From: a virus
Lineage: Duplodnaviria; Caudoviricetes
Reading direction: 5' to 3' (one strand)
Virus record (IMG/VR): IMGVR_UViG_3300010163_000001
Coordinates: 64,001 to 128,000 of that record
Length of the DNA: 64,000 bases
Position numbers and translations under genes: made by a program. The first letter of the stretch is position 1; each line of letters opens with the position of its first letter. Of this stretch, positions 13,941-61,136 are shown in pieces. The notes under the pieces were generated by a model that worked only from the letters and a program-made list of their open reading frames with translations, was not told the DNA's origin and did not search any database.

Positions 13941-13980
13941 AAAAAAAGAAAGTATGCTTTTTTAACATACTTTCTTTTTT
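13941..13980. terminator. Bidirectional intrinsic terminator closing the small pentamer array
   Basis: AAAAAAAGAAAGTATG-loop-CATACTTTCTTTTTT. Confidence 0.8.
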
Positions 13981-13981
13981 A

Positions 13982-14108
13982 CATCTCTGCACTAGACGAA
14001 ACACACTTAACTTTACTTCACAGAACCATAACAAACCATACTCCGCATAACCTTACCCATCCTCTTCTATACATTACTTTACTTCACAGAACCACAGCAT
14101 AGCTGTTC
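13982..14108 (-). repeat. Small pentamer-phased (GNNNN)n array, about 4 units; candidate ncRNA
   Basis: + strand C every 5 nt with CC shifts at 14092/3, 14061/2 and 14026/7; 19-bp direct repeat at 14010-14028 and 14076-14094. Confidence 0.8.
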
Positions 14109-14122
14109 TATTTGTCTAATGA

Positions 14123-14662
14123 CTATGCAAAAATTTCATCCGCTCTTCTTGCCATGTCTTCAAAGGAAATCGAACCATTATACAATTTTCGACGACTCCT
14201 CTTGTTGTATATTACAACATTTGACACAACATTTTCTCCTTCAATACATTCTATATCAATTGGCTCTTGATTTTTAAGCTTACTGATAAATTCCGGAATC
14301 GTATTTGCTATACTTAATAAAGATGTCATGATATACCCTTCTAGAGTATCATCGTCATCCATGTCAATGACATCCTGCATTCCCATAACTTCCAAGCTAG
14401 TAACCTTCCCACCTGTTGTGTGGAAGATAATTGCTTCATGCAGCAAACCGAGCATTGCTATTTTCCGGTATTCATCTTTCCCGGCGCTGTCTATCAGTGC
14501 AGATGCCAATTGCTCAGGTGTAAAGGAGCCATTTAATCTCGGATCGCCGTCGAATTGCATTTCAGTAAGTGCCATCATTTGTTCTGTGATAATGGCAATT
14601 GCCATCGTAACTTTTAGTTCTCCCCATGCGTCCTTAAATTGATCAATAATATTGTTTTTCAT
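14123..14662 (-). CDS. Hypothetical protein, 179 aa
   Basis: GGAGG RBS; own TATATTATTTT motif at 14707-14718. Confidence 0.8.
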   Translation of the reverse strand: MKNNIIDQFKDAWGELKVTMAIAIITEQMMALTEMQFDGDPRLNGSFTPEQLASALIDSAGKDEYRKIAMLGLLHEAIIFHTTGGKVTSLEVMGMQDVIDMDDDDTLEGYIMTSLLSIANTIPEFISKLKNQEPIDIECIEGENVVSNVVIYNKRSRRKLYNGSISFEDMARRADEIFA

Positions 14663-51512: not shown

Positions 51513-53963
51513 TTAAACTAATGATACACCTTTGTTCTTAGAAGCTGTAATTATCATTTCTTTTATTTCCTTCGGAATGTTTAATTCTTCTACTTCTGGA
51601 AGTTTGAATATCTCTTTCCATACGTAATCTTCTTTTTCTCCAGGATAGGATTCCATGAAAGAGATACTTTCCATTTGATCTATGAATTTTGCAAATAACT
51701 TCACATACATAGAACGATTCATTGGAGTATCATATATCGTAAATTCTCCTATTTGTAAAGGCATAATAGCATCTTCTATCATAATATCATCATATTCATG
51801 TTCCTTCACAAACTTTGTCCTTAATCCTATACCTTTCAATTTCGCGTTAAAAATGTCCGCATTTGTATTAATATAATTATCCTTTACTACAAGTCTCTTG
51901 ATTTCCAATGGATTTCCATCTGTCTCTAAAATTTGTTTTAATGCTTTCTTTCCAAGAGTAGAAGAACGCATAAAGATATTATATTCCGCCAATAATCTCC
52001 CAGATATTGCAGCCATCAAATTATAAGCTTCACCAATTCGCACTGGTGATTTTGAATATTGACTGCGATTATCTCTCTTTGTGGTGTCTTTAACAGGGAG
52101 ATTCGCTCTATCAATTCGAAAAGTGCTTCTTGCAGAGAAGTTCTTGTTATTATTATGCTTGAGAACCATCATATATTTCTCAGCAACAATACCATCCTTA
52201 ATAATTCTTCTTCTTTTCGTTCCAAATATATCAATATACAATGGAAGTGGTTTGATAAAATCGAAAGTGTCATAAATCTTTCGTATTGTTTCATATCGAA
52301 TCGGAGAATCTTGTTCCTTTCGAATATAAAATCCATGTTCTTCTACATTTCGTATAAATCTTTCTTTCTCTTTCTGATTAACTAATGCAATATTATGACT
52401 TCTAATTGTTAACTTTTGATCAAATGAATTATACATATCATAGAAGAAATTACATTCAGACTCATTAATCAATCCCAAATATTCGAATATTAAGTCTTCT
52501 TTTTCTTCCATTGTATCTAACGATACTACTTTCTTACGAATTTCCTCTGAACAGAAATTCAAATCCAATTCGTCTAATTGTCCAGGATTTAATCTTCGAA
52601 GTGCTCCAGATGCATTTAACATAATATCAACAGGATACTCATCAGTATAAGGCATCTCAGAATCCGGAACTATTTCTATATTAGATGCCAATTTTGCACG
52701 CTCTTCATCATTGATCGGTCTTCCTAACATGTCTAATATGGAGTCTATTGTATCAGTTATCATATCAGCAACACCTGGTTCTGAAACCACATTTGAAACT
52801 ACTCCTTTATCTCCATACCTACCGGCAACTTTTGACCCGGGTACTAACCCTAATACGGATTGAACCTTAAATTCCACTATCATATTTCCAAACGGTTTAT
52901 TTTTCTCTTTTCCACACCAAAGCCATTCCGGATCATTGAAATGCTGATATTTACTTTTGAAGAACGGAATATTATCTGTATACTTTGATCCTGACTTTTT
53001 AATCTTACTGCTCCACTCTGTCATCTTATCTGCATATGCACATATCTCATCATACCATCCTTTTAACTGTTTAAAGAAAGTCGTTTCTGGAAATGGATCT
53101 GGATTATTGTAATAAATATTAACATCGTAAATGAAACTGTAATCCGCCTCACCAATGTAATAATCAAAATCTGTACTGTAAATTCTTCTCAGATTATCAT
53201 TCTGAAAATCTGTTACAATATGATCTTTGTTGATTGGTCTTAAAGCCATCAGTACGCTATCTTTAATATTTTCTCCAAAATTTGGGCATATTTGATAGGC
53301 ATTTTCATCCCCATATAAGTTCAGAGGAATATGATTCATATTAATAGGTATCGTTACCGTATCAATTTCGACTGATTTTACTCCATCTGCCCATCCTTTT
53401 CGAATTTTAACTGCGTCTTCTAATGTATCTGTAGAAGTTGAATAATACACTTTCGCATTCTTACCATACCGATAATTCATGTGCTCATCATATGCAGTAG
53501 ACTTATAGATTACTTTATCTGTAATAACATCTCCTACTTCTAGTTCATCCATTACTTTCGTATTATATACAAATCCAAATTTCTCAATTAGATTCTCTGC
53601 AATTGGTTTTTCTATCATATCATATAAATCTTTCTCTGGATTATATAATACGAGTGTATAAATCATTCCGTTTTTAAATTTTCTTATAATATCTTTTACT
53701 TCCCAAGTTCCTTCTAATCTTTTATAAGAGCGATCTTTATTTAATTTTCCTAATGGATTTTCCCATCCAGTAGATATTCTCGGAACATCAGGATTCAATA
53801 AGGTCAAACTTTGTATTGTCTCTGCTGTGTTCATGTATAACCTAGAAGCATCTATATCACTAGGCCATGTCAATAGCGTATTCGCAGACATTTTATAAGT
53901 TTGACCTTCATACATTTCATCCATTTTGACATAGTCATCTTTAAAAGCAATCGCCATCTTCAA
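51513..53963 (-). CDS. Phage multisubunit RNA polymerase beta subunit, C-terminal half
   Basis: DASRLYM...Q (cf. DANRALMGANMQRQ), TLEDA, GSKVAGRYGDKGVVS, RRLNPGQ, KYMMVLKH, PVRIGE. Confidence 0.92.
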   Translation of the reverse strand: MKMAIAFKDDYVKMDEMYEGQTYKMSANTLLTWPSDIDASRLYMNTAETIQSLTLLNPDVPRISTGWENPLGKLNKDRSYKRLEGTWEVKDIIRKFKNGMIYTLVLYNPEKDLYDMIEKPIAENLIEKFGFVYNTKVMDELEVGDVITDKVIYKSTAYDEHMNYRYGKNAKVYYSTSTDTLEDAVKIRKGWADGVKSVEIDTVTIPINMNHIPLNLYGDENAYQICPNFGENIKDSVLMALRPINKDHIVTDFQNDNLRRIYSTDFDYYIGEADYSFIYDVNIYYNNPDPFPETTFFKQLKGWYDEICAYADKMTEWSSKIKKSGSKYTDNIPFFKSKYQHFNDPEWLWCGKEKNKPFGNMIVEFKVQSVLGLVPGSKVAGRYGDKGVVSNVVSEPGVADMITDTIDSILDMLGRPINDEERAKLASNIEIVPDSEMPYTDEYPVDIMLNASGALRRLNPGQLDELDLNFCSEEIRKKVVSLDTMEEKEDLIFEYLGLINESECNFFYDMYNSFDQKLTIRSHNIALVNQKEKERFIRNVEEHGFYIRKEQDSPIRYETIRKIYDTFDFIKPLPLYIDIFGTKRRRIIKDGIVAEKYMMVLKHNNNKNFSARSTFRIDRANLPVKDTTKRDNRSQYSKSPVRIGEAYNLMAAISGRLLAEYNIFMRSSTLGKKALKQILETDGNPLEIKRLVVKDNYINTNADIFNAKLKGIGLRTKFVKEHEYDDIMIEDAIMPLQIGEFTIYDTPMNRSMYVKLFAKFIDQMESISFMESYPGEKEDYVWKEIFKLPEVEELNIPKEIKEMIITASKNKGVSLV

Positions 53964-53984
53964 ATTCCTCCTATATAAATATTT

Positions 53985-54362
53985 TTAATAAACGGATTTA
54001 TTTTGATTTAACATATTATTATATTTAGTAATCTTTATCATTTTTATTTTCTTTATAAGTTCATCTGGAACGCCAGTAAGCTGTTTTATATATCCTATCC
54101 CAAGTTCAACATCACAAATCTCCTCTGCTAAAGATACCATATCAATATCTCCGTTTTTTCGTATAAATTTAGATACCTCCTGTTGTAATTCTGAAAGTTC
54201 TTCTATGGCAATTATCAAATTAGCAGTCCCATGAGGTAGAGGATTGTCTTCCATAGCCTCAATCAGCATGTTTCTGTTTAGTGTTATTTCTTTTTCAAGT
54301 TCCTCATCAGACATAACATCATCAATTTTTTCTAACTCTTCTTTAATTTTAGCTAATTCCAT
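53985..54362 (-). CDS. MazG-like nucleotide pyrophosphohydrolase
   Basis: IEELSELQQEVSK...LAEEICDV. Confidence 0.75.
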   Translation of the reverse strand: MELAKIKEELEKIDDVMSDEELEKEITLNRNMLIEAMEDNPLPHGTANLIIAIEELSELQQEVSKFIRKNGDIDMVSLAEEICDVELGIGYIKQLTGVPDELIKKIKMIKITKYNNMLNQNKSVY

Positions 54363-54427
54363 ATTTCTTATCCTCCTTTTATAAAATAAGGGATTGTTAT
54401 GCTAAATAACAATCCCTATATATTTGA

Positions 54428-55666
54428 TTAAGCTGCTACAGCAGTATCAGTTTCTTTCATTTGCTCTTCATTGGCTTTCATAAAATCACCATAGAGAACT
54501 TTATCATTATTACTTAATTCTTTAGAGCCAAGTAATGCTTCTAAATGAGGCTGTAACTCACCCATGAATGCATCTCGGAATGGTTTTTCACCAAGGAACT
54601 TTGCACGAAAATCCTTTCTACTAAATTTATATTCACTTAATCCATGCATATGAAGAAATGGATTCCTTCCATCAATTAACCCAATTGATTTTGAATATTC
54701 ATATAGAGAATAAATAGGATCAAATCCAATTTCCCCATTAAAGCAAACATCAACTGAACTTCCGACAAATGCAGTTTTTGTTTTTGCAATTTGTAACGAT
54801 GCTTTAACACCATCAAATCCAACATCATCTCTTTTGTACATATTAGATTTAATCATATCTAATCGGAAATAATTCTGACTATAATACTGTGCTGCATAAC
54901 CTCTATTTACTTGCTCATTCGGCTTCAACATCATCAGACCCTTTGGTGCTTGGTTATATGGATCTGGATTTACTTTGGGCACAATATGATTAATCGTAAA
55001 CACGGTAATATTGTATCTCATCATACGATCAAGACAATTTGTGAAGAATCTCGTTACATCCTTTGCTGCTCTTGCTGCATCCATATTCGTTCCGAGATCC
55101 TTATCATTTCTATTATCTCTACTATTAAAGGACGGAAGGGAATCTATCACAAATACAGTAGGAACATAAGCCAAAAACTTCCGATTATCAAAGGACTTAG
55201 ATTCAACCTCGTATTTATATAAGTTTCCACTATTTTCTTTCACTTCACAGATTTGATTAAACATATCCATGACATCTTCAATAGAACTATAATCTTTCTT
55301 TAATCTCAATCGATCGTCCCTTGGGTCTGTTCCTGTTATTTGGACCATTCTAGGTTTCAAGTTCGTCTTTTCACAATCAATATGAAATAACATACCATCT
55401 TCAAATGGCTTGATGATATTAAATCCCATTTGATCTGCAAGAGTGGACTTTCCTGAACCAGTTGGTCCTATAATTGATATAAATGTTCCTCCCATAACTC
55501 CGATAACAGGTACCTTACGGTATGTACCGTCACCATTGTCTATTGTCATCCAAAATCCATTTGCATAATCTAATGGTAAAATACCTGTAGAATAATTTAC
55601 AAATGTATCATTTGATGTAAATAATCCTTTTTTGTCACCTGCGTCTAATTCCGCCATCAAACTCAT
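54428..55666 (-). CDS. RecA/UvsX-like recombinase
   Basis: STGILPLD, GPTGSGKST, HIDCE, VIDSL, TINHI. Confidence 0.9.
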   Translation of the reverse strand: MSLMAELDAGDKKGLFTSNDTFVNYSTGILPLDYANGFWMTIDNGDGTYRKVPVIGVMGGTFISIIGPTGSGKSTLADQMGFNIIKPFEDGMLFHIDCEKTNLKPRMVQITGTDPRDDRLRLKKDYSSIEDVMDMFNQICEVKENSGNLYKYEVESKSFDNRKFLAYVPTVFVIDSLPSFNSRDNRNDKDLGTNMDAARAAKDVTRFFTNCLDRMMRYNITVFTINHIVPKVNPDPYNQAPKGLMMLKPNEQVNRGYAAQYYSQNYFRLDMIKSNMYKRDDVGFDGVKASLQIAKTKTAFVGSSVDVCFNGEIGFDPIYSLYEYSKSIGLIDGRNPFLHMHGLSEYKFSRKDFRAKFLGEKPFRDAFMGELQPHLEALLGSKELSNNDKVLYGDFMKANEEQMKETDTAVAA

Positions 55667-55758
55667 ATTTTAATACCTCCTTTTCAAATAAAAAAATATG
55701 GAGTAGTTTATAAAAATATTATAAGGATGTCATAAATTGTATATGACATCCTTATTTA

Positions 55759-56637
55759 TTACCGTCTCTTCTTATTTTTTCCTTTCTTTCCATGTTTCTT
55801 CGCCGGATATTTCGATTTGTAATCCGAATTCATCTTTTCAATCATATCATCAAGAGAATCCTGTGTTACATAATTATCACAAGGAATTTCTTCTCCTATT
55901 GTGGGGTTATGCTTATTGTTAACTGGTGGCTTATCAGAAACTTCCGGTTTCTGATATTCCATCTTATTGGGTTTCTCTGTAAGTTTTTCTTTTTTATCCT
56001 TAACTGTATAAATTGGGAACGTTTGAGCACCCTTGAATTCTGCTACATCAACATCAGAACAATCAGAACGTTTCTTCAAATAAACAATACCTTCTTCTGT
56101 AAACTCTATCGTATGTTCCGTACACACTGTATGTTTGTCTTCATTATAACCTTCAATGTTATAAGACTCAATTTTAAGTGTAAGGACATCCTTATGATAC
56201 TTATGCGTTTTGTTAAAAAGAGATACATTCGGAACTATAACCATATACGCAATCTTCTTAAACAACGCATCATCATATTCAATATCTCTCCGCTCACTTT
56301 GAATAATAGACCCTCTGAAGATGCGATATTCAAAAGATGATTCAATCGGTTTTAATATACCGTTAAATGGTATTGCAACAATATATACATCAGTGTCAAA
56401 TCGATTTTTGGCGGAGGAATTCATTTTAAATACAGATTTTCCTTCCGAGTTATTACTCATCCAAATTCTTAGATTGTTATCAGAATAATTCTGAGTATCA
56501 GAAATAACGCTTGCTAGTCTGATTTGTTTTTGATTCTGTCCAACACCAATAGAATTAAAATGGGTAATTGTCTGATTACTATTATACTTTGATTCTACTG
56601 TAGTATGGATCAAATCCTTATTTAAAAACTTTAACAT
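55759..56637 (-). CDS. Hypothetical protein with basic C-terminal tail
   Basis: GGAGG RBS. Confidence 0.8.
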   Translation of the reverse strand: MLKFLNKDLIHTTVESKYNSNQTITHFNSIGVGQNQKQIRLASVISDTQNYSDNNLRIWMSNNSEGKSVFKMNSSAKNRFDTDVYIVAIPFNGILKPIESSFEYRIFRGSIIQSERRDIEYDDALFKKIAYMVIVPNVSLFNKTHKYHKDVLTLKIESYNIEGYNEDKHTVCTEHTIEFTEEGIVYLKKRSDCSDVDVAEFKGAQTFPIYTVKDKKEKLTEKPNKMEYQKPEVSDKPPVNNKHNPTIGEEIPCDNYVTQDSLDDMIEKMNSDYKSKYPAKKHGKKGKNKKRR

Positions 56638-56689
56638 TTTTTGTTTCCTCCATATCTGGTTTTTTATTTATAGCTTGGTTTTCTTTAAA

Positions 56690-57523
56690 TTAAAGTTTCA
56701 TCTCTATTGTATTTTTCATTTTTTTAACTATATTATGAGGCATATCACTCAAGTGAAATAAATTTCTATTTGGTTTTTCAAATAAATGTTCATTTCCTTC
56801 ATATGGGACATAATACTTAGTTTGTGATTGAATCAGATAAACTCCTTTATCTCTTCTATCCCAACTAAAGTGCCATTCGTGGTTGATCATCATTGGGTAA
56901 TCTAATTTTACAGGGGTGGCTGATTTCAGATCTTTTATAAATTCATAAATATTAAACTTAACACGAATATCTACAAATACGTACACTAATTCAGTCACTG
57001 CTTCTTGATATCCCATTTGATAAGTGAGTAAAGGTTTTCTTAACTTGATAAATTTTCCATTGAATAATGTGTAAAAAGGAGATTTTCGAATTGGAGAAAT
57101 AATCCCATTAAATCCATATCCTCCGATTAATAAAAAGTGAGTATCTGTTTCTTTTTCCTTTTCCTCTAAAGGAATGGGACATTCTATATAGTAAATAATG
57201 GTATGAAATTTTCTTTCATAAAACCCATGTATAACATCAACATATTCAGAATCTGTATAAAGATTCAATATTTTTCCTCCATATGATTCTGACATTTTTT
57301 CTAAAGTTCTAACAAGCGAATCCGAATCTTTATATTCATGATAAACCCGACATGTATTATCTATAATAATTGAAGCAAATGGAGTATCAACATCAATTTT
57401 CGGAATATTTTGATCTGTCTTAATATAAAGATTTATAGATACAGTAACCATTCCTGAAATGGATCTATGTGGAATTATTTTGGTATCAAAATAAAAAAGA
57501 TTCAAATTTTCAATTTTTAACAT
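56690..57523 (-). CDS. Hypothetical protein
   Basis: AGGAGG RBS. Confidence 0.8.
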   Translation of the reverse strand: MLKIENLNLFYFDTKIIPHRSISGMVTVSINLYIKTDQNIPKIDVDTPFASIIIDNTCRVYHEYKDSDSLVRTLEKMSESYGGKILNLYTDSEYVDVIHGFYERKFHTIIYYIECPIPLEEKEKETDTHFLLIGGYGFNGIISPIRKSPFYTLFNGKFIKLRKPLLTYQMGYQEAVTELVYVFVDIRVKFNIYEFIKDLKSATPVKLDYPMMINHEWHFSWDRRDKGVYLIQSQTKYYVPYEGNEHLFEKPNRNLFHLSDMPHNIVKKMKNTIEMKL

Positions 57524-57589: not shown

Positions 57590-58576
57590 TCATTTTTTCA
57601 AGATTTTTACAATCTTATCCGCATATTTTGTAATCGTATCAGCCAACTTCGGAAAGATACTCTCATCAATATCCATCAAGTTAACACGAAGGTCAAATGA
57701 CTTATTCAGGAACATCTTTTCGATTCTCTTGATATAAAGTTCAATCATCTGCTCACGAAGCTGTTGTGGAGAATTATTTAATTCTTCCAGAGCAAAATTG
57801 GTAAGTGAATCCCAACATTCTCTCACGTCATCGGAATTCTTGTATTTGTTAACTCGATTGACTCCCTCTAATAAGACAAATGTTGCAGCCTCAATTACAT
57901 TATCCTTTCCAAACACATGCCGGAAGAAGTCTCTCCATTTTACATTTCTCTCAAATTCTCCATTCTGCTCTACTTCTGAATAGATTGTATTCAGAGTATT
58001 ATTCAAATAGAATCCAATCTGATATTTTCCAATATATTTCGGTTCCGGTATAGAAGTTAATGCTGTTACCGCAATATATTTCGGGAGTCTGCATTGCTTT
58101 GCGATATTAATCGCGTCTCGTTTAACAATTTTTCTTGCACATTTTAAAAGATCTGCGATGATGATATTGATATCTTTAATCTCATCTACCAATCGCATTG
58201 CTTCTCGTCTGCTGTAATCCCCAGCTTTCCTTTTTTCTTCAATATCGTTAATTTCGTTATTATTTGCATCAATTGCAATATTTGCAATTGATGTGAGAAA
58301 TGTTGCGTGACTTCTGGTAAATTCTCTGTACCCTTCATCCTCAATAACATCTACAATTGCTTCCATTACGAATGGTTTCGTAAATTCGGCATACATCGAA
58401 CTTACAATTTCATTTAAATTCGGAACCTTCTTTGGCTGGAACATCCATTCAATAAAGTCATCATCGTAAAACAGGGAACGTATCATTCTACGCCTTTTCT
58501 TTTTTCCCATATACTTGAAATCTCTTAACACATCCAATGCCATTTCATAATCAAACATTGCCATTTCCTCCTTCAT
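57590..58576 (-). CDS. Hypothetical alpha-helical protein
   Basis: Long ORF, promoter-like motif at 58607-58618, terminator at ~57553-57580. Confidence 0.8.
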   Translation of the reverse strand: MKEEMAMFDYEMALDVLRDFKYMGKKKRRRMIRSLFYDDDFIEWMFQPKKVPNLNEIVSSMYAEFTKPFVMEAIVDVIEDEGYREFTRSHATFLTSIANIAIDANNNEINDIEEKRKAGDYSRREAMRLVDEIKDINIIIADLLKCARKIVKRDAINIAKQCRLPKYIAVTALTSIPEPKYIGKYQIGFYLNNTLNTIYSEVEQNGEFERNVKWRDFFRHVFGKDNVIEAATFVLLEGVNRVNKYKNSDDVRECWDSLTNFALEELNNSPQQLREQMIELYIKRIEKMFLNKSFDLRVNLMDIDESIFPKLADTITKYADKIVKILKK

Positions 58577-58657
58577 TTTTTAATATTTGAATGTTGATTT
58601 CACAATGAAATAATATATATGTCTAATAAAAAAGTAAAAAAATAGGTGCGTACGCAC

Positions 58658-59194
58658 CTAATACTTTCTGCATTCATCTGACATCAATTCCTTTTTTGTT
58701 TCCTGCTTCCAGCGTTTCCTTATATTTTCCAAGTCCTTTTCCGTTGCATTATATTCCTGCCCTGGAATATGCCTGAAATCGTCTAAGGCGTCCCCTAAAA
58801 AAGAAACAGGAATAAATTCTTCGCTTTCCCCTCCATATACTCCGCTTATATCGTATGGGATATCTTTATAAAGGTAGATGATATGCCCAAACGGTGCTGC
58901 CCAGCAGACAGTGCCCCCTGGGAAAGCATCTTCTAACATCCGTGCAAAATAGTAACAATAACCGGTTGCAAATAAACTGTAGATGGTTTCTATAGTATCA
59001 TCACTTGTCCCGCCGTTTAATTCAATATCTGAAATAAATGACAGTACTCTTGTATCCGCATCCGCGCAAAACTGCAGATGCCTGTGGATGAATTCTTTTT
59101 TCATTTTTTCTTTATCCCTTTCGTTTTCCGCTTTCTTTATATGTTTAATGTGTTCTTGTGTTATCATGCCACAACCCCCTTTCAAGTTTGACAA
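58658..59194 (-). CDS. Hypothetical protein with possible Cys-His-Asp (papain/transglutaminase-like) triad
   Basis: GYCYYFARML...FGHII...YDISG; likely start MITQEH. Confidence 0.55.
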   Translation of the reverse strand: MSNLKGGCGMITQEHIKHIKKAENERDKEKMKKEFIHRHLQFCADADTRVLSFISDIELNGGTSDDTIETIYSLFATGYCYYFARMLEDAFPGGTVCWAAPFGHIIYLYKDIPYDISGVYGGESEEFIPVSFLGDALDDFRHIPGQEYNATEKDLENIRKRWKQETKKELMSDECRKY

Positions 59195-59222
59195 ACGGCA
59201 TGGGACAAGTTCCCATGCCGTT
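59194..59222 (-). terminator. Hairpin closing the large pentamer array
   Basis: AACGGCATGGGA-loop-TCCCATGCCGTT. Confidence 0.7.
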
Positions 59223-59235
59223 CATTTTCAGCTTT

Positions 59236-59871
59236 CCTTTACTTCATAACACCCAACAAGACAAAGCTATTCCATATCTTTACTAAACAACTCAACTCAT
59301 CTCTATACCTCCACACTACATCACTTTGAAGCACAAATCCATAACCATCCATACCTAACTTCACTGCACCCAACATGTCGCAACTACTCCATAACTTTAC
59401 TATACTATTCTTTGCAAGGCTACTCCATTTCTATACAAAACTCAACATGACAGTTCAGCGCCTCAACTTAACTATACTATCATAATATTTCATAGCTTCA
59501 CATCACCTGTTGCTACCAAACGATACGGTACTTTACCATTGCAATACCTCACCCCGCAATACTCATCCATCACATCACAAAACGAATCCTTTCTCTTCCT
59601 TTACTTATCATAACAATACGTTACTCTACATTAACAGTACAACTCATCTCTATGCAGTTCTTTACTTGACTGAATTATTCCCTTACATTTCATCACGTAA
59701 TCAAACCATACCATTCCCCTACTTTACAACACAACTCGTCACATTACCATTCCCAGGCGTCACGCCGCGATACGTTTCCACTCAATTCCGATGCTTTTCG
59801 CCTCATCTCTCAACAAATCCTTTACTTCACTTCACTCCACACAACGAAACCATGCCTTTACGGTGCTTTTC
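59236..59871 (-). repeat. Large pentamer-phased (GNNNN)n array, about 17 units of 31/36 nt; candidate ncRNA array
   Basis: + strand C at almost every 5th base with CC phase shifts; no long ORF on the minus strand. Confidence 0.9.
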
Positions 59872-59888
59872 TTATTTATTTTACTTAA

Positions 59889-61136
59889 TTAAAAGAGATC
59901 ATTTAACACAGAATCAATCTCATCTTGTGAGGCTTCTGTATCGGATGCTAATTTATCCTGAGAGTTATTAACTAATTCTTGTACAAGTGAAGCATCATTT
60001 GATGTATCAATTGTCTTTGTCCTCTTCAGAAATTCAGCCTGCTCTTTTACTGTGTCAATATAATACCCAATCCGATTAATCGGGTATGTCATTCCAGAAA
60101 GAATCACAACAATCTGACCATCTGTTCCTTCTGTAACGCCGTAATTTTCATATACCCCATTTTTTGGTTTATGACCAATAAAATCAAAAATTTCTTGATA
60201 ATTTCCACTTCTGGAAACTTCTGTCATATCATCTGGGCAATTGATAATTACTGCCATATGAACAGCAATTCCATCTTTTTGTATCATAACAGCAGGTCCT
60301 TTTCGGATCTCTTCAATGACACATTGCTGCATAGTCTTCTTTTCAAGAGTATTGGATGTGATATTATTCACCACATACGCTGCAAGATATCCCGGTTCCG
60401 AAATAACCGATTTCACATCATTTTCATCCATCATCTGCGAGGATGACATTCGCAAAAATTCTCCGCTGATTGCTTTAATCGTCTGAATTGCATGTTGATC
60501 CGCTTTGATAAATGCCTTATCGTTTGGCTCATCCGCAAACTGGTTCAGATCAGTTAAGCTGTATGGAATCCCAAGTTTCTGAATCTCATCCAAGCAATAT
60601 GCCGTATTGCTGAATGCAATATTGCTATCAGTATTCTTCGGAGTAATTCCATGATACATGATAATTTTCTTTGTGAACATCCTGGTCAATACTCTGCATA
60701 TTTCTGGAGAAACAGAAGGACCTGTTCCACCACCAGTTGCAGATGTTACTACAATGACATCTGCTGCCTGACATGAATTCATGAAGAACTCATTTTCTGT
60801 AAATAATTCACGTCCATTTTCCTTCCAAAGAGCGACACCTTTTCCCACATTCTTTCCTGATCCACGAGCTTCTTTTCCAACGATGAAACATGGGATCGTT
60901 CCGTCCATGATTTGATCACTCATATCTTTTACAGAAGAATTAACTGCGAATACGTCCATTCCTTCTCTGTAGCCATATGAAATAGTTTGATTACCAGCAT
61001 TTCCAACACCAATAACAAATACTCGAAGATGTACATCTTTTTCAATTTTGGTTTTAATCTTCGTTACTGGGTGTTGAACTTTTTGAGCAGCAGTTGTAAT
61101 TACTTCATGCTCTTGAATATTTTCGTTCTCTGACAT
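59889..61136 (-). CDS. Tubulin/FtsZ-family GTPase (PhuZ/TubZ-like)
   Basis: VIGVGNAGNQ, signature ATGGGTGPS, T7-like MDENDV. Confidence 0.92.
   Translation of the reverse strand: MSENENIQEHEVITTAAQKVQHPVTKIKTKIEKDVHLRVFVIGVGNAGNQTISYGYREGMDVFAVNSSVKDMSDQIMDGTIPCFIVGKEARGSGKNVGKGVALWKENGRELFTENEFFMNSCQAADVIVVTSATGGGTGPSVSPEICRVLTRMFTKKIIMYHGITPKNTDSNIAFSNTAYCLDEIQKLGIPYSLTDLNQFADEPNDKAFIKADQHAIQTIKAISGEFLRMSSSQMMDENDVKSVISEPGYLAAYVVNNITSNTLEKKTMQQCVIEEIRKGPAVMIQKDGIAVHMAVIINCPDDMTEVSRSGNYQEIFDFIGHKPKNGVYENYGVTEGTDGQIVVILSGMTYPINRIGYYIDTVKEQAEFLKRTKTIDTSNDASLVQELVNNSQDKLASDTEASQDEIDSVLNDLF

What the first reader, a model, noticed from the sequence alone, without database searches (positions are those of the whole stretch)
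59236..59871. Pentamer-phased non-coding array: G every 5 nt, built from 31/36-nt units (candidate guide-RNA or filament-binding system)
Seen: about 635 nt between the tubulin stop codon and a hairpin. The minus (sense) strand reads GCACC GTAAA G GCATG GTTTC GTTGT GTGGA GTGAA GTGAA GTAAA G GATTT GTTGA...; position 1 is almost always G, position 2 mostly T, positions 3-5 variable. An extra G resets the phase at + strand CC pairs 59855/6, 59819/20, 59788/9, 59752/3, 59716/7, 59680/1, 59598/9, 59567/8, 59536/7, 59461/2, 59425/6, 59389/90, 59339/40, 59308/9, 59272/3 and 59236/7. Units are therefore mostly 31 or 36 nt (5n+1), with a few irregular stretches, and the junction is roughly GTnAwGGA. The units differ in sequence, so this is neither a satellite nor a CRISPR array, and a period of 5 cannot come from codons. 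Inference: a constant scaffold base alternating with variable bases suits an RNA bound by a repeating protein subunit (one per 5 nt), cut at GG junctions into short RNAs whose variable positions could specify targets. It is conceptually like the phage pentamer (GGY/NN) guide arrays I recall being reported with RAMP/Cas7-like proteins, but the motif here differs and I see no RAMP gene in this window. Alternative: a DNA centromere-like site for the adjacent tubulin.
Basis: partly seen in the sequence, partly recalled or inferred. Interest (0 to 1): 0.95.

Follow-up and report, generated by a model that had tools for sequence, protein, structure and literature searches.

The report
Phage VIPR guide-RNA array
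The 635 bases after this jumbo phage's tubulin gene are very probably an array of short guide RNAs written in five-base steps for a CRISPR-like "VIPR" protein encoded 94 kb away; this kind of system was first described in 2026, and the unusual point here is that the arrays are scattered far from their protein gene.

Summary
On the minus strand of 59236-59871, G recurs every 5 nt (lag-5 autocorrelation 0.50; shuffles -0.001 +/- 0.04). One-base slips at GG give mostly 31/36-nt units, and all 16 listed CC pairs are present.

It is not unique. The 254.6-kb phage genome holds six such arrays and one solo guide (about 2.5 kb, about 56 guides). All are on the minus strand, each between a stop codon and a terminator hairpin.

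The grammar is G-Y-N-N-N with GYAAN-G|G-AA junctions. This fits the alternative "YNNNG" repeats and possibly the staggered arrays reported for VIPR systems (bioRxiv 10.64898/2026.04.26.720920).

The tubulin-centromere alternative fails: four of five tubulin orthologue loci lack an array.

Targets and the decoding rule could not be established.

This is a known kind, which this scan's notes mention 119 times on other DNA. Here vipr is monocistronic and every array lies at least 23 kb from it.

The parts
59236..59871 (-). Pentamer-phased array (genome array 3 of 6). It holds about 109 pentamers and 15 slip hexamers, parsed as about 15 abutting guides of the form G(NNNNG)k with k mostly 6-7. Junctions read GTAAW-G|G-AA.
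59196..59220 (-). Hairpin directly 3' of the array (10-bp stem, 5-nt loop, then TTTGT). It is the likely end of the tubulin-array transcript. The simple terminator scan did not call it because the T run is short.
   Evidence: sequence read directly
59889..61136 (-). Tubulin/FtsZ-family gene (415 aa). The array occupies the stretch between its stop codon and the hairpin, that is, its presumed 3' UTR.
13981..14108 (-). Second, small array of the same grammar (genome array 2). It has about 22 pentamers and an internally duplicated 17-19-nt block. It lies between the stop of a 179-aa ORF (14123-14662) and a terminator hairpin (about 13941-13980).
59510..59971 (+). Antisense 153-aa ORF that overlaps the array. 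It has no family match and is judged a by-product of the G-poor + strand, not a gene.

Best explanation
The stretch is a VIPR-type guide-RNA (vrRNA) array.

Proposed mechanism. The array is transcribed with, or just behind, the tubulin gene and ends at the hairpin at 59196-59220. The C-poor, unstructured RNA is coated by the phage's single Vipr protein, a minimal Cas7-like RAMP encoded at genome 29111-29872 (minus strand, 253 aa), with one protomer per pentamer. The protomers hold the fixed G and the following pyrimidine and expose the variable bases. Each G(NNNNG)5-8 unit, bounded by GYAAN-G|G-AA junctions, acts as one short guide. The resulting filament recognises double-stranded DNA of competing mobile elements, or of the host, through a gapped code and silences it, as shown for Escherichia phage SUSP1.

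What is shown here: the periodic grammar; seven dispersed loci of it in one genome; a lone RAMP gene in the same genome; and near-universal adjacency of this RAMP family to arrays of the same grammar.

What is inferred: transcription, processing at GG, binding by Vipr, DNA targeting, the number of bases read per pentamer, and the targets.
For: 1. Periodicity far beyond chance, with 5n+1 units. Six arrays and one solo guide share the grammar. All are on the minus strand, each between a same-strand stop codon and a hairpin.

2. The published VIPR vrRNAs are tandem pentamers with fixed and hypervariable positions. The preprint's methods report alternative NNNGG, YNNNG and NNNNG repeats and staggered arrays.

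3. The ORF at genome 29111-29872 has a C-terminal G-loop (NGLGQWHNSGKGRF) resembling the SUSP1 Vipr G-loop (GVGDWRPRFGRF).
- The profile-profile alignment to the SUSP1 Vipr clade covers 183 columns at E 0.0096.
- The best PDB sequence-profile hits are the G-loops of type VII Cas7 and Csm4.
- The AlphaFold model has pLDDT 77.7.
- Foldseek finds 62 PDB hits at E <= 1e-3; all 50 listed are CRISPR effector-complex entries, and the chains checked are Cas7-type.
- The best BFVD hit is annotated as a RAMP superfamily protein.

4. Guilt by association. 80 of 80 IMG/VR loci and 78 of 80 genome loci that encode relatives of this protein carry a G-period-5 array on the gene's strand. In all 158, the nearest array is within 134 nt.

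5. The relatives share the grammar: position 2 is pyrimidine-biased, 76 of 89 substitutions there are C<->T, and the GYAAN-G|G-AA junctions recur.

6. The nearest tubulin orthologue locus has an array at the same site with different guides, so the frame is kept while the content turns over.

7. The RNA has no significant fold (z -1.2), as expected for a protein-coated guide.
Against: - No array lies next to vipr in this genome. The gene has its own terminator, and the nearest array is 23 kb away, whereas all 158 relatives with arrays have one adjacent.
- No expression data exist; no sequencing run could be listed.
- No target was found under any of 24-32 decoding rules in 1.2-1.8 Mb of related phage DNA, nor in three IMG/VR scans with one guide.
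- No structured 3' tail of the SUSP1 type and no conserved vap gene were found.
- Sequence similarity to the characterised Vipr clade is weak: hmmsearch E 0.21, and hhalign reports a probability of only 4% despite E 0.0096.
Confidence: 0.87

Rival explanations
1. The arrays are decoy or hijacking guides ("solo vrRNAs"). They would serve mainly to load or misdirect the Vipr proteins of rival phages rather than the phage's own protein.
For: Every array is more than 20 kb from vipr. That is the operational definition of "solo" in bioRxiv 10.64898/2026.10.15.759431, which shows solo vrRNAs at work in satellites and reports 346 vipr-null phages that carry them.
Against: The genome has an intact, monocistronic vipr of the clade whose members carry exactly this grammar. 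About 2.5 kb of guides is a large investment for decoys. Nothing shows rival Vipr proteins in the same host.
Confidence: 0.05
2. The stretch is a DNA-level element. G on one strand at every half helical turn (36/7 = 5.14 nt, two steps = 10.3 bp) would form a centromere-like or wrapping site for a filament-forming DNA-binding protein that partners the adjacent tubulin (TubZRC-like).
For: It lies next to a tubulin-family gene. The mean period of 5.1-5.2 nt equals half a DNA turn.
Against: Six further loci of the same grammar lie behind unrelated genes: a Tad8-like gene and unknown ORFs of 179, 146, 160 and 238 aa. Four of five tubulin orthologue loci go straight from stop codon to terminator, with no array. 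In 158 relatives the arrays flank a RAMP gene and not a tubulin. The arrays lie strictly on the transcribed strand.
Confidence: 0.02
3. The RNA is a sponge or a 3'-UTR regulatory element for a different RNA-binding protein. Candidates are a TRAP-like ring that reads triplets every 5-6 nt, or CsrA, which reads GGA.
For: The RNA is unstructured and C-poor with a 5-nt rhythm and recurrent GGA at junctions. It sits in a 3'-UTR position.
Against: There is no (G/U)AG triplet consensus; only G1 and Y2 are fixed. The tight linkage of this grammar to a RAMP family is not explained. No match to any Rfam family at E <= 1.
Confidence: 0.03
4. The stretch is a decaying pentanucleotide microsatellite or another compositional by-product with no function.
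For: GTAAA and GTAAT are the commonest pentamers. Unit duplications are visible.
Against: Neutral decay would not keep one position at 87-94% G while the other four drift. Tandem Repeats Finder finds no array. The same frame is kept in more than 150 relatives with different content, and substitutions at position 2 are 85% C<->T.
Confidence: 0.02

Closest known systems
VIPR systems with non-canonical repeats and staggered arrays (bioRxiv 10.64898/2026.04.26.720920, methods and figs S17-S18; non-canonical 5-mers also in 10.64898/2026.10.21.760802)
   Same: Both have a lone minimal RAMP plus tandem pentamers with a fixed anchor and hypervariable bases. YNNNG and NNNNG repeat types are reported. 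Staggered arrays, in which one vrRNA ends where the next begins, are reported. Both are phage or prophage borne.
   Different: I could not see the figures or tables, so I cannot say which of the seven types this clade is. Guides here are short (5-8 units, against 9-16). Here vipr stands alone and all arrays are 23-183 kb from it, each placed behind another gene's stop codon.
Type II VIPR of Escherichia phage SUSP1 (Vipr YP_009199429, vap1, four vrRNAs; structures in 10.64898/2026.04.26.720927)
   Same: Both show a one-protomer-per-pentamer logic. Both have a G-loop with a conserved tryptophan. In SUSP1 that residue is W178, which stacks on G2. In the low-confidence hhalign alignment W178 pairs with the invariant Trp of this family.
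   Different: The anchor is G-Y, not G-G-Y. In the low-confidence alignment the SUSP1 residues that read G1 (H17, D177) pair with Ser and Gln here, which would fit loss of the first G; this is an inference. There is no pseudoknotted 3' tail, no adjacent vap, and the protein is 253 aa with a basic C-terminal tail. The decoding rule is not established here.
Solo vrRNAs of satellites and vipr-null phages (bioRxiv 10.64898/2026.10.15.759431)
   Same: In both cases the arrays lie more than 20 kb from any vipr gene.
   Different: This genome does carry a vipr of the cognate clade, so the arrays are remote rather than orphan.
Class 1 CRISPR crRNPs (Cas7/Csm3 backbone of types III and VII)
   Different: The register is 5 nt, not 6. 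There are no CRISPR repeats or spacers, and the RAMP family model PF03787 finds nothing else in the genome. The guide information is interleaved inside the repeat frame.
TubZRC partition systems (tubC centromere iterons bound by TubR)
   Same: A repeated element lies beside a phage tubulin gene.
   Different: tubC consists of near-identical iterons upstream of tubR-tubZ (from my own knowledge of that system). Here the units differ in sequence, lie downstream on the transcribed strand, occur at six other loci, and are absent from most orthologous tubulin loci.

Membership tests
VIPR (Vipr + vrRNA) | Non-coding tandem pentanucleotide repeats with fixed anchor positions and hypervariable positions. 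| tested here: met
   G is at position 1 in 87-94% of units, Y at position 2 in about 70%, and positions 3-5 vary. z = 12.4 against shuffles.
VIPR (Vipr + vrRNA) | Canonical GGY/NN repeat motif. | tested here: not met
   The motif here is G-Y-N-N-N. The describing preprint itself admits YNNNG and NNNNG variants, so this feature is typical rather than defining.
VIPR (Vipr + vrRNA) | Arrays and vipr occur in the same genome, with the arrays on the transcribed strand. | tested here: met
   Seven loci and vipr are all on the minus strand of one 254.6-kb genome. In relatives, 158 of 160 loci have an array on the vipr strand.
VIPR (Vipr + vrRNA) | Arrays flank the vipr gene (the typical locus architecture). 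| tested here: not met
   vipr is followed directly by a terminator and preceded by a 125-nt promoter region. The nearest array is 23 kb away. In 158 relatives the gap is at most 134 nt. The preprint calls this architecture typical, not defining.
VIPR (Vipr + vrRNA) | A conserved structured 3' tail caps each vrRNA (type II). | tested here: inconclusive
   The array has no significant fold (z -1.2) and no Rfam match. The units abut at GYAAN-G|G-AA junctions. The staggered arrays of the preprint may lack tails, but I could not see the figure.
VIPR (Vipr + vrRNA) | An accessory vap gene. | tested here: inconclusive
   No neighbour family is shared by more than 61 of 158 relatives' loci. Only one of the ten commonest neighbour families has a weak match (27% identity) elsewhere in this genome. 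The neighbours of vipr here have no Pfam match except an AAA ATPase.
VIPR (Vipr + vrRNA) | vrRNAs are expressed and co-purify with Vipr. | not testable with these tools
   No sequencing run could be listed for this stretch.
VIPR (Vipr + vrRNA) | Variable bases match DNA targets through a gapped code (NNx in type II). | tested here: inconclusive
   None of 24-32 rules exceeded shuffled guides, apart from co-linear period-5 matches that probably reflect residual array DNA and two isolated outliers judged chance. The IMG/VR scans were at chance level or empty.
CRISPR-Cas | Direct repeats of 20 nt or more alternating with unique spacers, plus cas operon genes. | tested here: not met
   There are no tandem repeats. 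Direct repeats are only 60-76% alike. No other match to the RAMP family model PF03787 in the genome.
TubZRC centromere (tubC) | Iterons linked to the tubulin operon and conserved with it. | tested here: not met
   The array is absent from four of five tubulin orthologue loci. The same grammar occurs at six loci unrelated to tubulin.

The most novel reading that the evidence does not exclude
In this jumbo-phage lineage the VIPR system has been taken apart. The vipr gene stands alone, and about 56 short guides are distributed as 3'-UTR cassettes behind seven different transcription units, among them the tubulin gene and an anti-Thoeris Tad8-like gene. Guide supply would then be tied to the expression programme of those genes. 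With only 5-8 pentamers per guide, and only G-Y fixed, this clade may read three or four bases per pentamer, a code different from the published NNx.
Probability: 0.3. Interest if true: 0.65.

Novelty: new variant of a known kind. Interest (0 to 1): 0.45.

Why it matters
The kind, VIPR, is known from three 2026 preprints, and this scan's notes already mention it 119 times on other DNA. The core finding is therefore not new.

What this case adds:
- A vipr-positive phage can keep all its guide arrays 23-183 kb from vipr. The 20-kb rule used in print to call arrays "solo" would misclassify them, and locus-centred searches would miss them.
- It links a very large, unnamed RAMP family of gut Clostridia phages and prophages (more than 5000 sequence clusters) to G-Y-NNN arrays. 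The association is near-universal (158 of 160 loci), which gives a large data set for solving the code of this clade.
- It removes a tempting but wrong reading, a tubulin centromere.

Tried and rejected
- Rfam scan of 58500-60500 at E <= 1: no match.
- blastn of the array against 50,697 phage records: no match.
- Pfam RAMP model PF03787 on the whole genome: no match. The RAMP was found only through a G-loop regular expression, weak HMM hits and structure prediction.
- The genes between arrays 4 and 5 (245, 346, 146 and 160 aa) were my first Vipr candidates. They have no supporting Pfam or PHROG match and look mainly helical or disordered, so I dropped them.
- A 345-aa ORF (genome 173640-174677) scored E 0.02 against both Vipr profiles. 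It is a K/N-rich helical protein without a G-loop, and I judged the hit spurious.
- Target decoding with 822 to 1761 guides from this phage and its relatives, against 1.2-1.8 Mb of array-masked related DNA, under 24-32 rules (read positions x skip 0-3) with shuffled-guide controls. Only co-linear period-5 matches were in excess, probably residual array DNA. Two isolated outliers were judged chance: a 12-nt-seed excess for one odd rule, and one guide of a relative that hits the vipr gene of about 21 near-identical phages under a "positions 3,4 + 2 skipped" rule, which amounts to one independent event.
- IMG/VR scan of one GC-rich guide of this array under NNx: 69 hits, about the chance number. 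Ten fall on a conserved SNF2-helicase motif, but the other 55 guides do not converge on those loci any more than shuffled guides do.
- The same guide under NNNx and NNNNx: 0 hits.
- Sequencing runs: none was listed and no RNA holder was listed.
- tblastn-type search for close tubulin relatives in IMG/VR: none found. The records of L007 and L074 are not held for whole-record search.
- The supplementary tables of the VIPR preprint are not held, so the VIPR type could not be assigned.

Full report
**Observation.** I read 58900-60200 on the minus strand. Between the tubulin stop codon (59889-59891) and a 10-bp hairpin (59196-59220) the sequence parses into pentamers that begin with G. G autocorrelation is 0.50 at lag 5, 0.34 at lag 10, and 0.38, 0.43 and 0.36 at lags 31, 36 and 41. 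In 5000 shuffles the lag-5 value is -0.001 +/- 0.040 with a maximum of 0.129, giving z = 12.4. The strand is very C-poor (46 C in 636 nt). Tandem Repeats Finder reports nothing, and direct repeats are only 60-76% alike.

**Extent.** A sliding scan of the window showed a second, small array at about 13981-14108. The window belongs to a complete 254,592-bp virus record with inverted terminal repeats and 31% G+C. A genome scan and parse found six arrays:
- genome about 53.2-53.5 kb
- 78.0-78.1 kb
- 123.2-123.9 kb (the finding)
- 211.9-212.5 kb
- 214.8-215.4 kb
- 236.7-236.9 kb

There is also one solo guide near 182.9 kb. Runs of at least seven in-phase G occur 86 times on the minus strand, all inside these arrays, and never on the plus strand. 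Each array starts just after the stop codon of a minus-strand gene and ends at a hairpin followed by T's. The upstream genes are unrelated: a Tad8-like anti-Thoeris protein, the tubulin, and unknown ORFs of 179, 146, 160 and 238 aa. About 22% of long-ORF coding sequence is on the plus strand, and array 4 abuts a convergent plus-strand gene. The arrays therefore follow the local direction of transcription.

**Grammar.** Over 404 pentamers, position 1 is G 87%. Position 2 is T 57%, A 22%, C 13%. Positions 3-5 are A/T-rich and variable, with only 8-10% C. The +1 slips are GG. The first G closes one phase and the second opens the next, so the units are G(NNNNG)k, abutting or partly overlapping. 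Genome-wide unit lengths are 31 (18 times), 26 (9), 41 (6) and 36 (6). Junctions read GTAAW-G|G-AA. The RNA has no significant fold (z -1.2) and no Rfam match.

**What is known.** A full-text search found bioRxiv 10.64898/2026.04.26.720920. It describes VIPR systems: a minimal RAMP protein (Vipr), an accessory vap gene, and vrRNAs of 9-16 YNNGG pentamers whose NN bases read double-stranded DNA with one skipped base. Its methods state that other loci have NNNGG, YNNNG and NNNNG repeats. [quoted passage not shown] Companion preprints give the filament structure, with one protomer per repeat: G1 is read by H17 and D177, G2 by R138 and W178, and Y3 sits in a pyrimidine pocket. They also describe solo vrRNAs, defined as arrays more than 20 kb from any vipr. 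A fourth preprint recovers 99 period-5 clusters, 21 of them with non-canonical motifs. Notes of this scan mention VIPR 119 times on other DNA. I treated those notes as leads only.

**The protein.** I took the SUSP1 Vipr (KT454805 28474-29061, 195 aa) from the phage collection and confirmed its flanking GGT-NN arrays. A regular expression for a G-loop, and phmmer and hmmsearch with the SUSP1 clade, both pointed to one ORF at genome 29111-29872 (minus strand). That is 34 kb before the window's start and 93 kb from this array. Evidence on this ORF:
- Its family is very large: 5139 clusters at E <= 1e-3, typically 199 aa, with no Pfam domain.
- Its invariant residues concentrate in a C-terminal NG[IL]GQWHNSGKGRF loop.
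- Profile-profile alignment to the SUSP1 clade spans 183 columns at E 0.0096, although hhalign reports a low probability.
- The best PDB sequence-profile matches are the G-loops of type VII Cas7 and of Csm4.
- The AlphaFold model (pLDDT 77.7) gives 62 Foldseek hits at E <= 1e-3. All 50 listed are CRISPR effector-complex entries of types I, III, IV and VII or Cas7-11, and the chains checked are Cas7-type.
- The best viral model is a 40%-identical protein annotated as a RAMP superfamily protein.

In the low-confidence alignment, the tryptophan that stacks on G2 in SUSP1 is conserved, while the two residues that read G1 pair with Ser and Gln. This would fit an anchor reduced from GGY to G-Y, but it is an inference.

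**Association.** I fetched relatives' loci. All 80 from IMG/VR and 78 of 80 from species-representative genomes carry a G-period-5 array on the strand of the gene. The genome loci are mostly gut Clostridia MAGs such as Lachnospiraceae and Oscillospiraceae. In all 158, the nearest array is within 134 nt of the gene, lying upstream, downstream or on both sides, with a median of 620 nt of array per locus. The relatives share the grammar:
- Position 2 is C 45%, T 15%.
- 76 of 89 substitutions at position 2 between near-identical guides are C<->T.
- Position 5 is the most variable (69 variable columns, against 48 and 51 for positions 3 and 4).
- The junctions read GYAAN-G|G-AA.
- The commonest guide has six pentamers.

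This ties the array grammar to the protein family about as firmly as sequence data can.

**What differs here.** In this phage vipr is monocistronic. A 125-nt upstream region separates it from a divergent gene, and a terminator hairpin follows it directly. No array lies within 23 kb. The closest relative, a 246-kb contig whose Vipr is 62% identical, has its nearest array 7.6 kb away. A more distant 243-kb jumbo phage keeps about 4.5 kb of arrays right behind vipr and has none elsewhere. The arrays have therefore been dispersed in this lineage. No conserved accessory gene was found.

**The tubulin.** Tubulin orthologues are common in related jumbo phages. Of five loci fetched, only the nearest (80% identity) has an array after the stop codon. 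That array is about 200 nt long, with the same frame and other guides. The other four run from the stop codon straight into a terminator. The array is thus an accessory insertion into the 3' end of the transcription unit, not a partner of the tubulin.

**Targets.** I could not find them.
- Seed-and-count searches used 822 to 1761 guides under 24-32 read/skip rules, against 1.2-1.8 Mb of array-masked DNA from this genome and its relatives. They gave no excess over scaffold-preserving shuffles, apart from co-linear matches that are probably residual array DNA, a 12-nt-seed excess for one odd rule, and one non-independent hit in vipr genes. I judged the last two to be chance.
- One GC-rich guide of this array was scanned against IMG/VR. 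Under NNx it gave 69 hits, about the chance number. Ten were on a conserved SNF2-helicase motif, but the other guides do not converge there. Under NNNx and NNNNx it gave none.
- With only 5-8 pentamers per guide, reading two bases per pentamer would specify only 10-16 bp. The clade may therefore read more bases per unit. This is an argument from information content, not a result.

**Verdict.** The finding is a real member of the VIPR kind. It has a non-canonical but already reported anchor, short abutting guides, and a dispersed, vipr-remote arrangement that I did not find in the text of the four papers read. Expression, processing, binding and targets remain untested.

Noticed in passing
genome 53506-53799 (minus), 10.2 kb before the window's start; locus L002:5506-5799: A 97-aa ORF matches the Thoeris inhibitor family Tad8 (PF25189, E 7.9e-25). 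Array 1 sits directly in its 3' untranslated stretch, so an anti-defence gene and guides may share one transcript.
   Followed up: partly
genome about 182,880-182,930 (minus), beyond the window's end: A single five-pentamer guide lies here. It is preceded by the GTAAAGTAATGG junction motif and followed by a strong terminator. This is a seventh, one-guide locus.
   Followed up: partly
L069 / G001 52,681-57,220 (IMG/VR 3300035520_000350, 243 kb): A related jumbo phage carries about 4.5 kb of contiguous pentamer arrays directly behind its vipr gene. This is by far the largest array set seen here.
   Followed up: partly
genome arrays 4 and 5 (211.9-212.5 kb and 214.8-215.4 kb); window 14027-14095: Arrays 4 and 5 share a block of about 45 nt that spans two junctions, and array 2 contains a duplicated 17-19-nt block. 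Arrays seem to grow by unit duplication and exchange.
   Followed up: no
L005:6849-8336 (+) and L005:2156-3376 (-), next to vipr at genome about 26-32 kb: The vipr gene lies between an AAA ATPase gene (PF00004, E 8e-20) and a gene with an RNA polymerase Rpb1 domain 2 (E 1.2e-7). The phage therefore probably has its own multisubunit RNA polymerase, as other tubulin-bearing jumbo phages do.
   Followed up: no
L192, L207, L216, L225, L226, L228, L245, L248, L253, L256 (IMG/VR phages): One guide of the array, read as NNx, spells (I/M)V(N/K)(I/M)G(D/E)L(N/K). It matches a conserved IMVKMGELK motif in SNF2-family helicases of about 560 aa in unrelated phages, with varied wobble bases. I judged this a chance match because no other guide converges on those loci.
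   Followed up: yes
all variable positions of the arrays (window 59236-59871 and the five others): C is depleted to 8-10% at positions 3-5, against about 16% in the genome, while G is not depleted. This may be selection against pairing with the anchor G's, which would keep the RNA unstructured.
   Followed up: no
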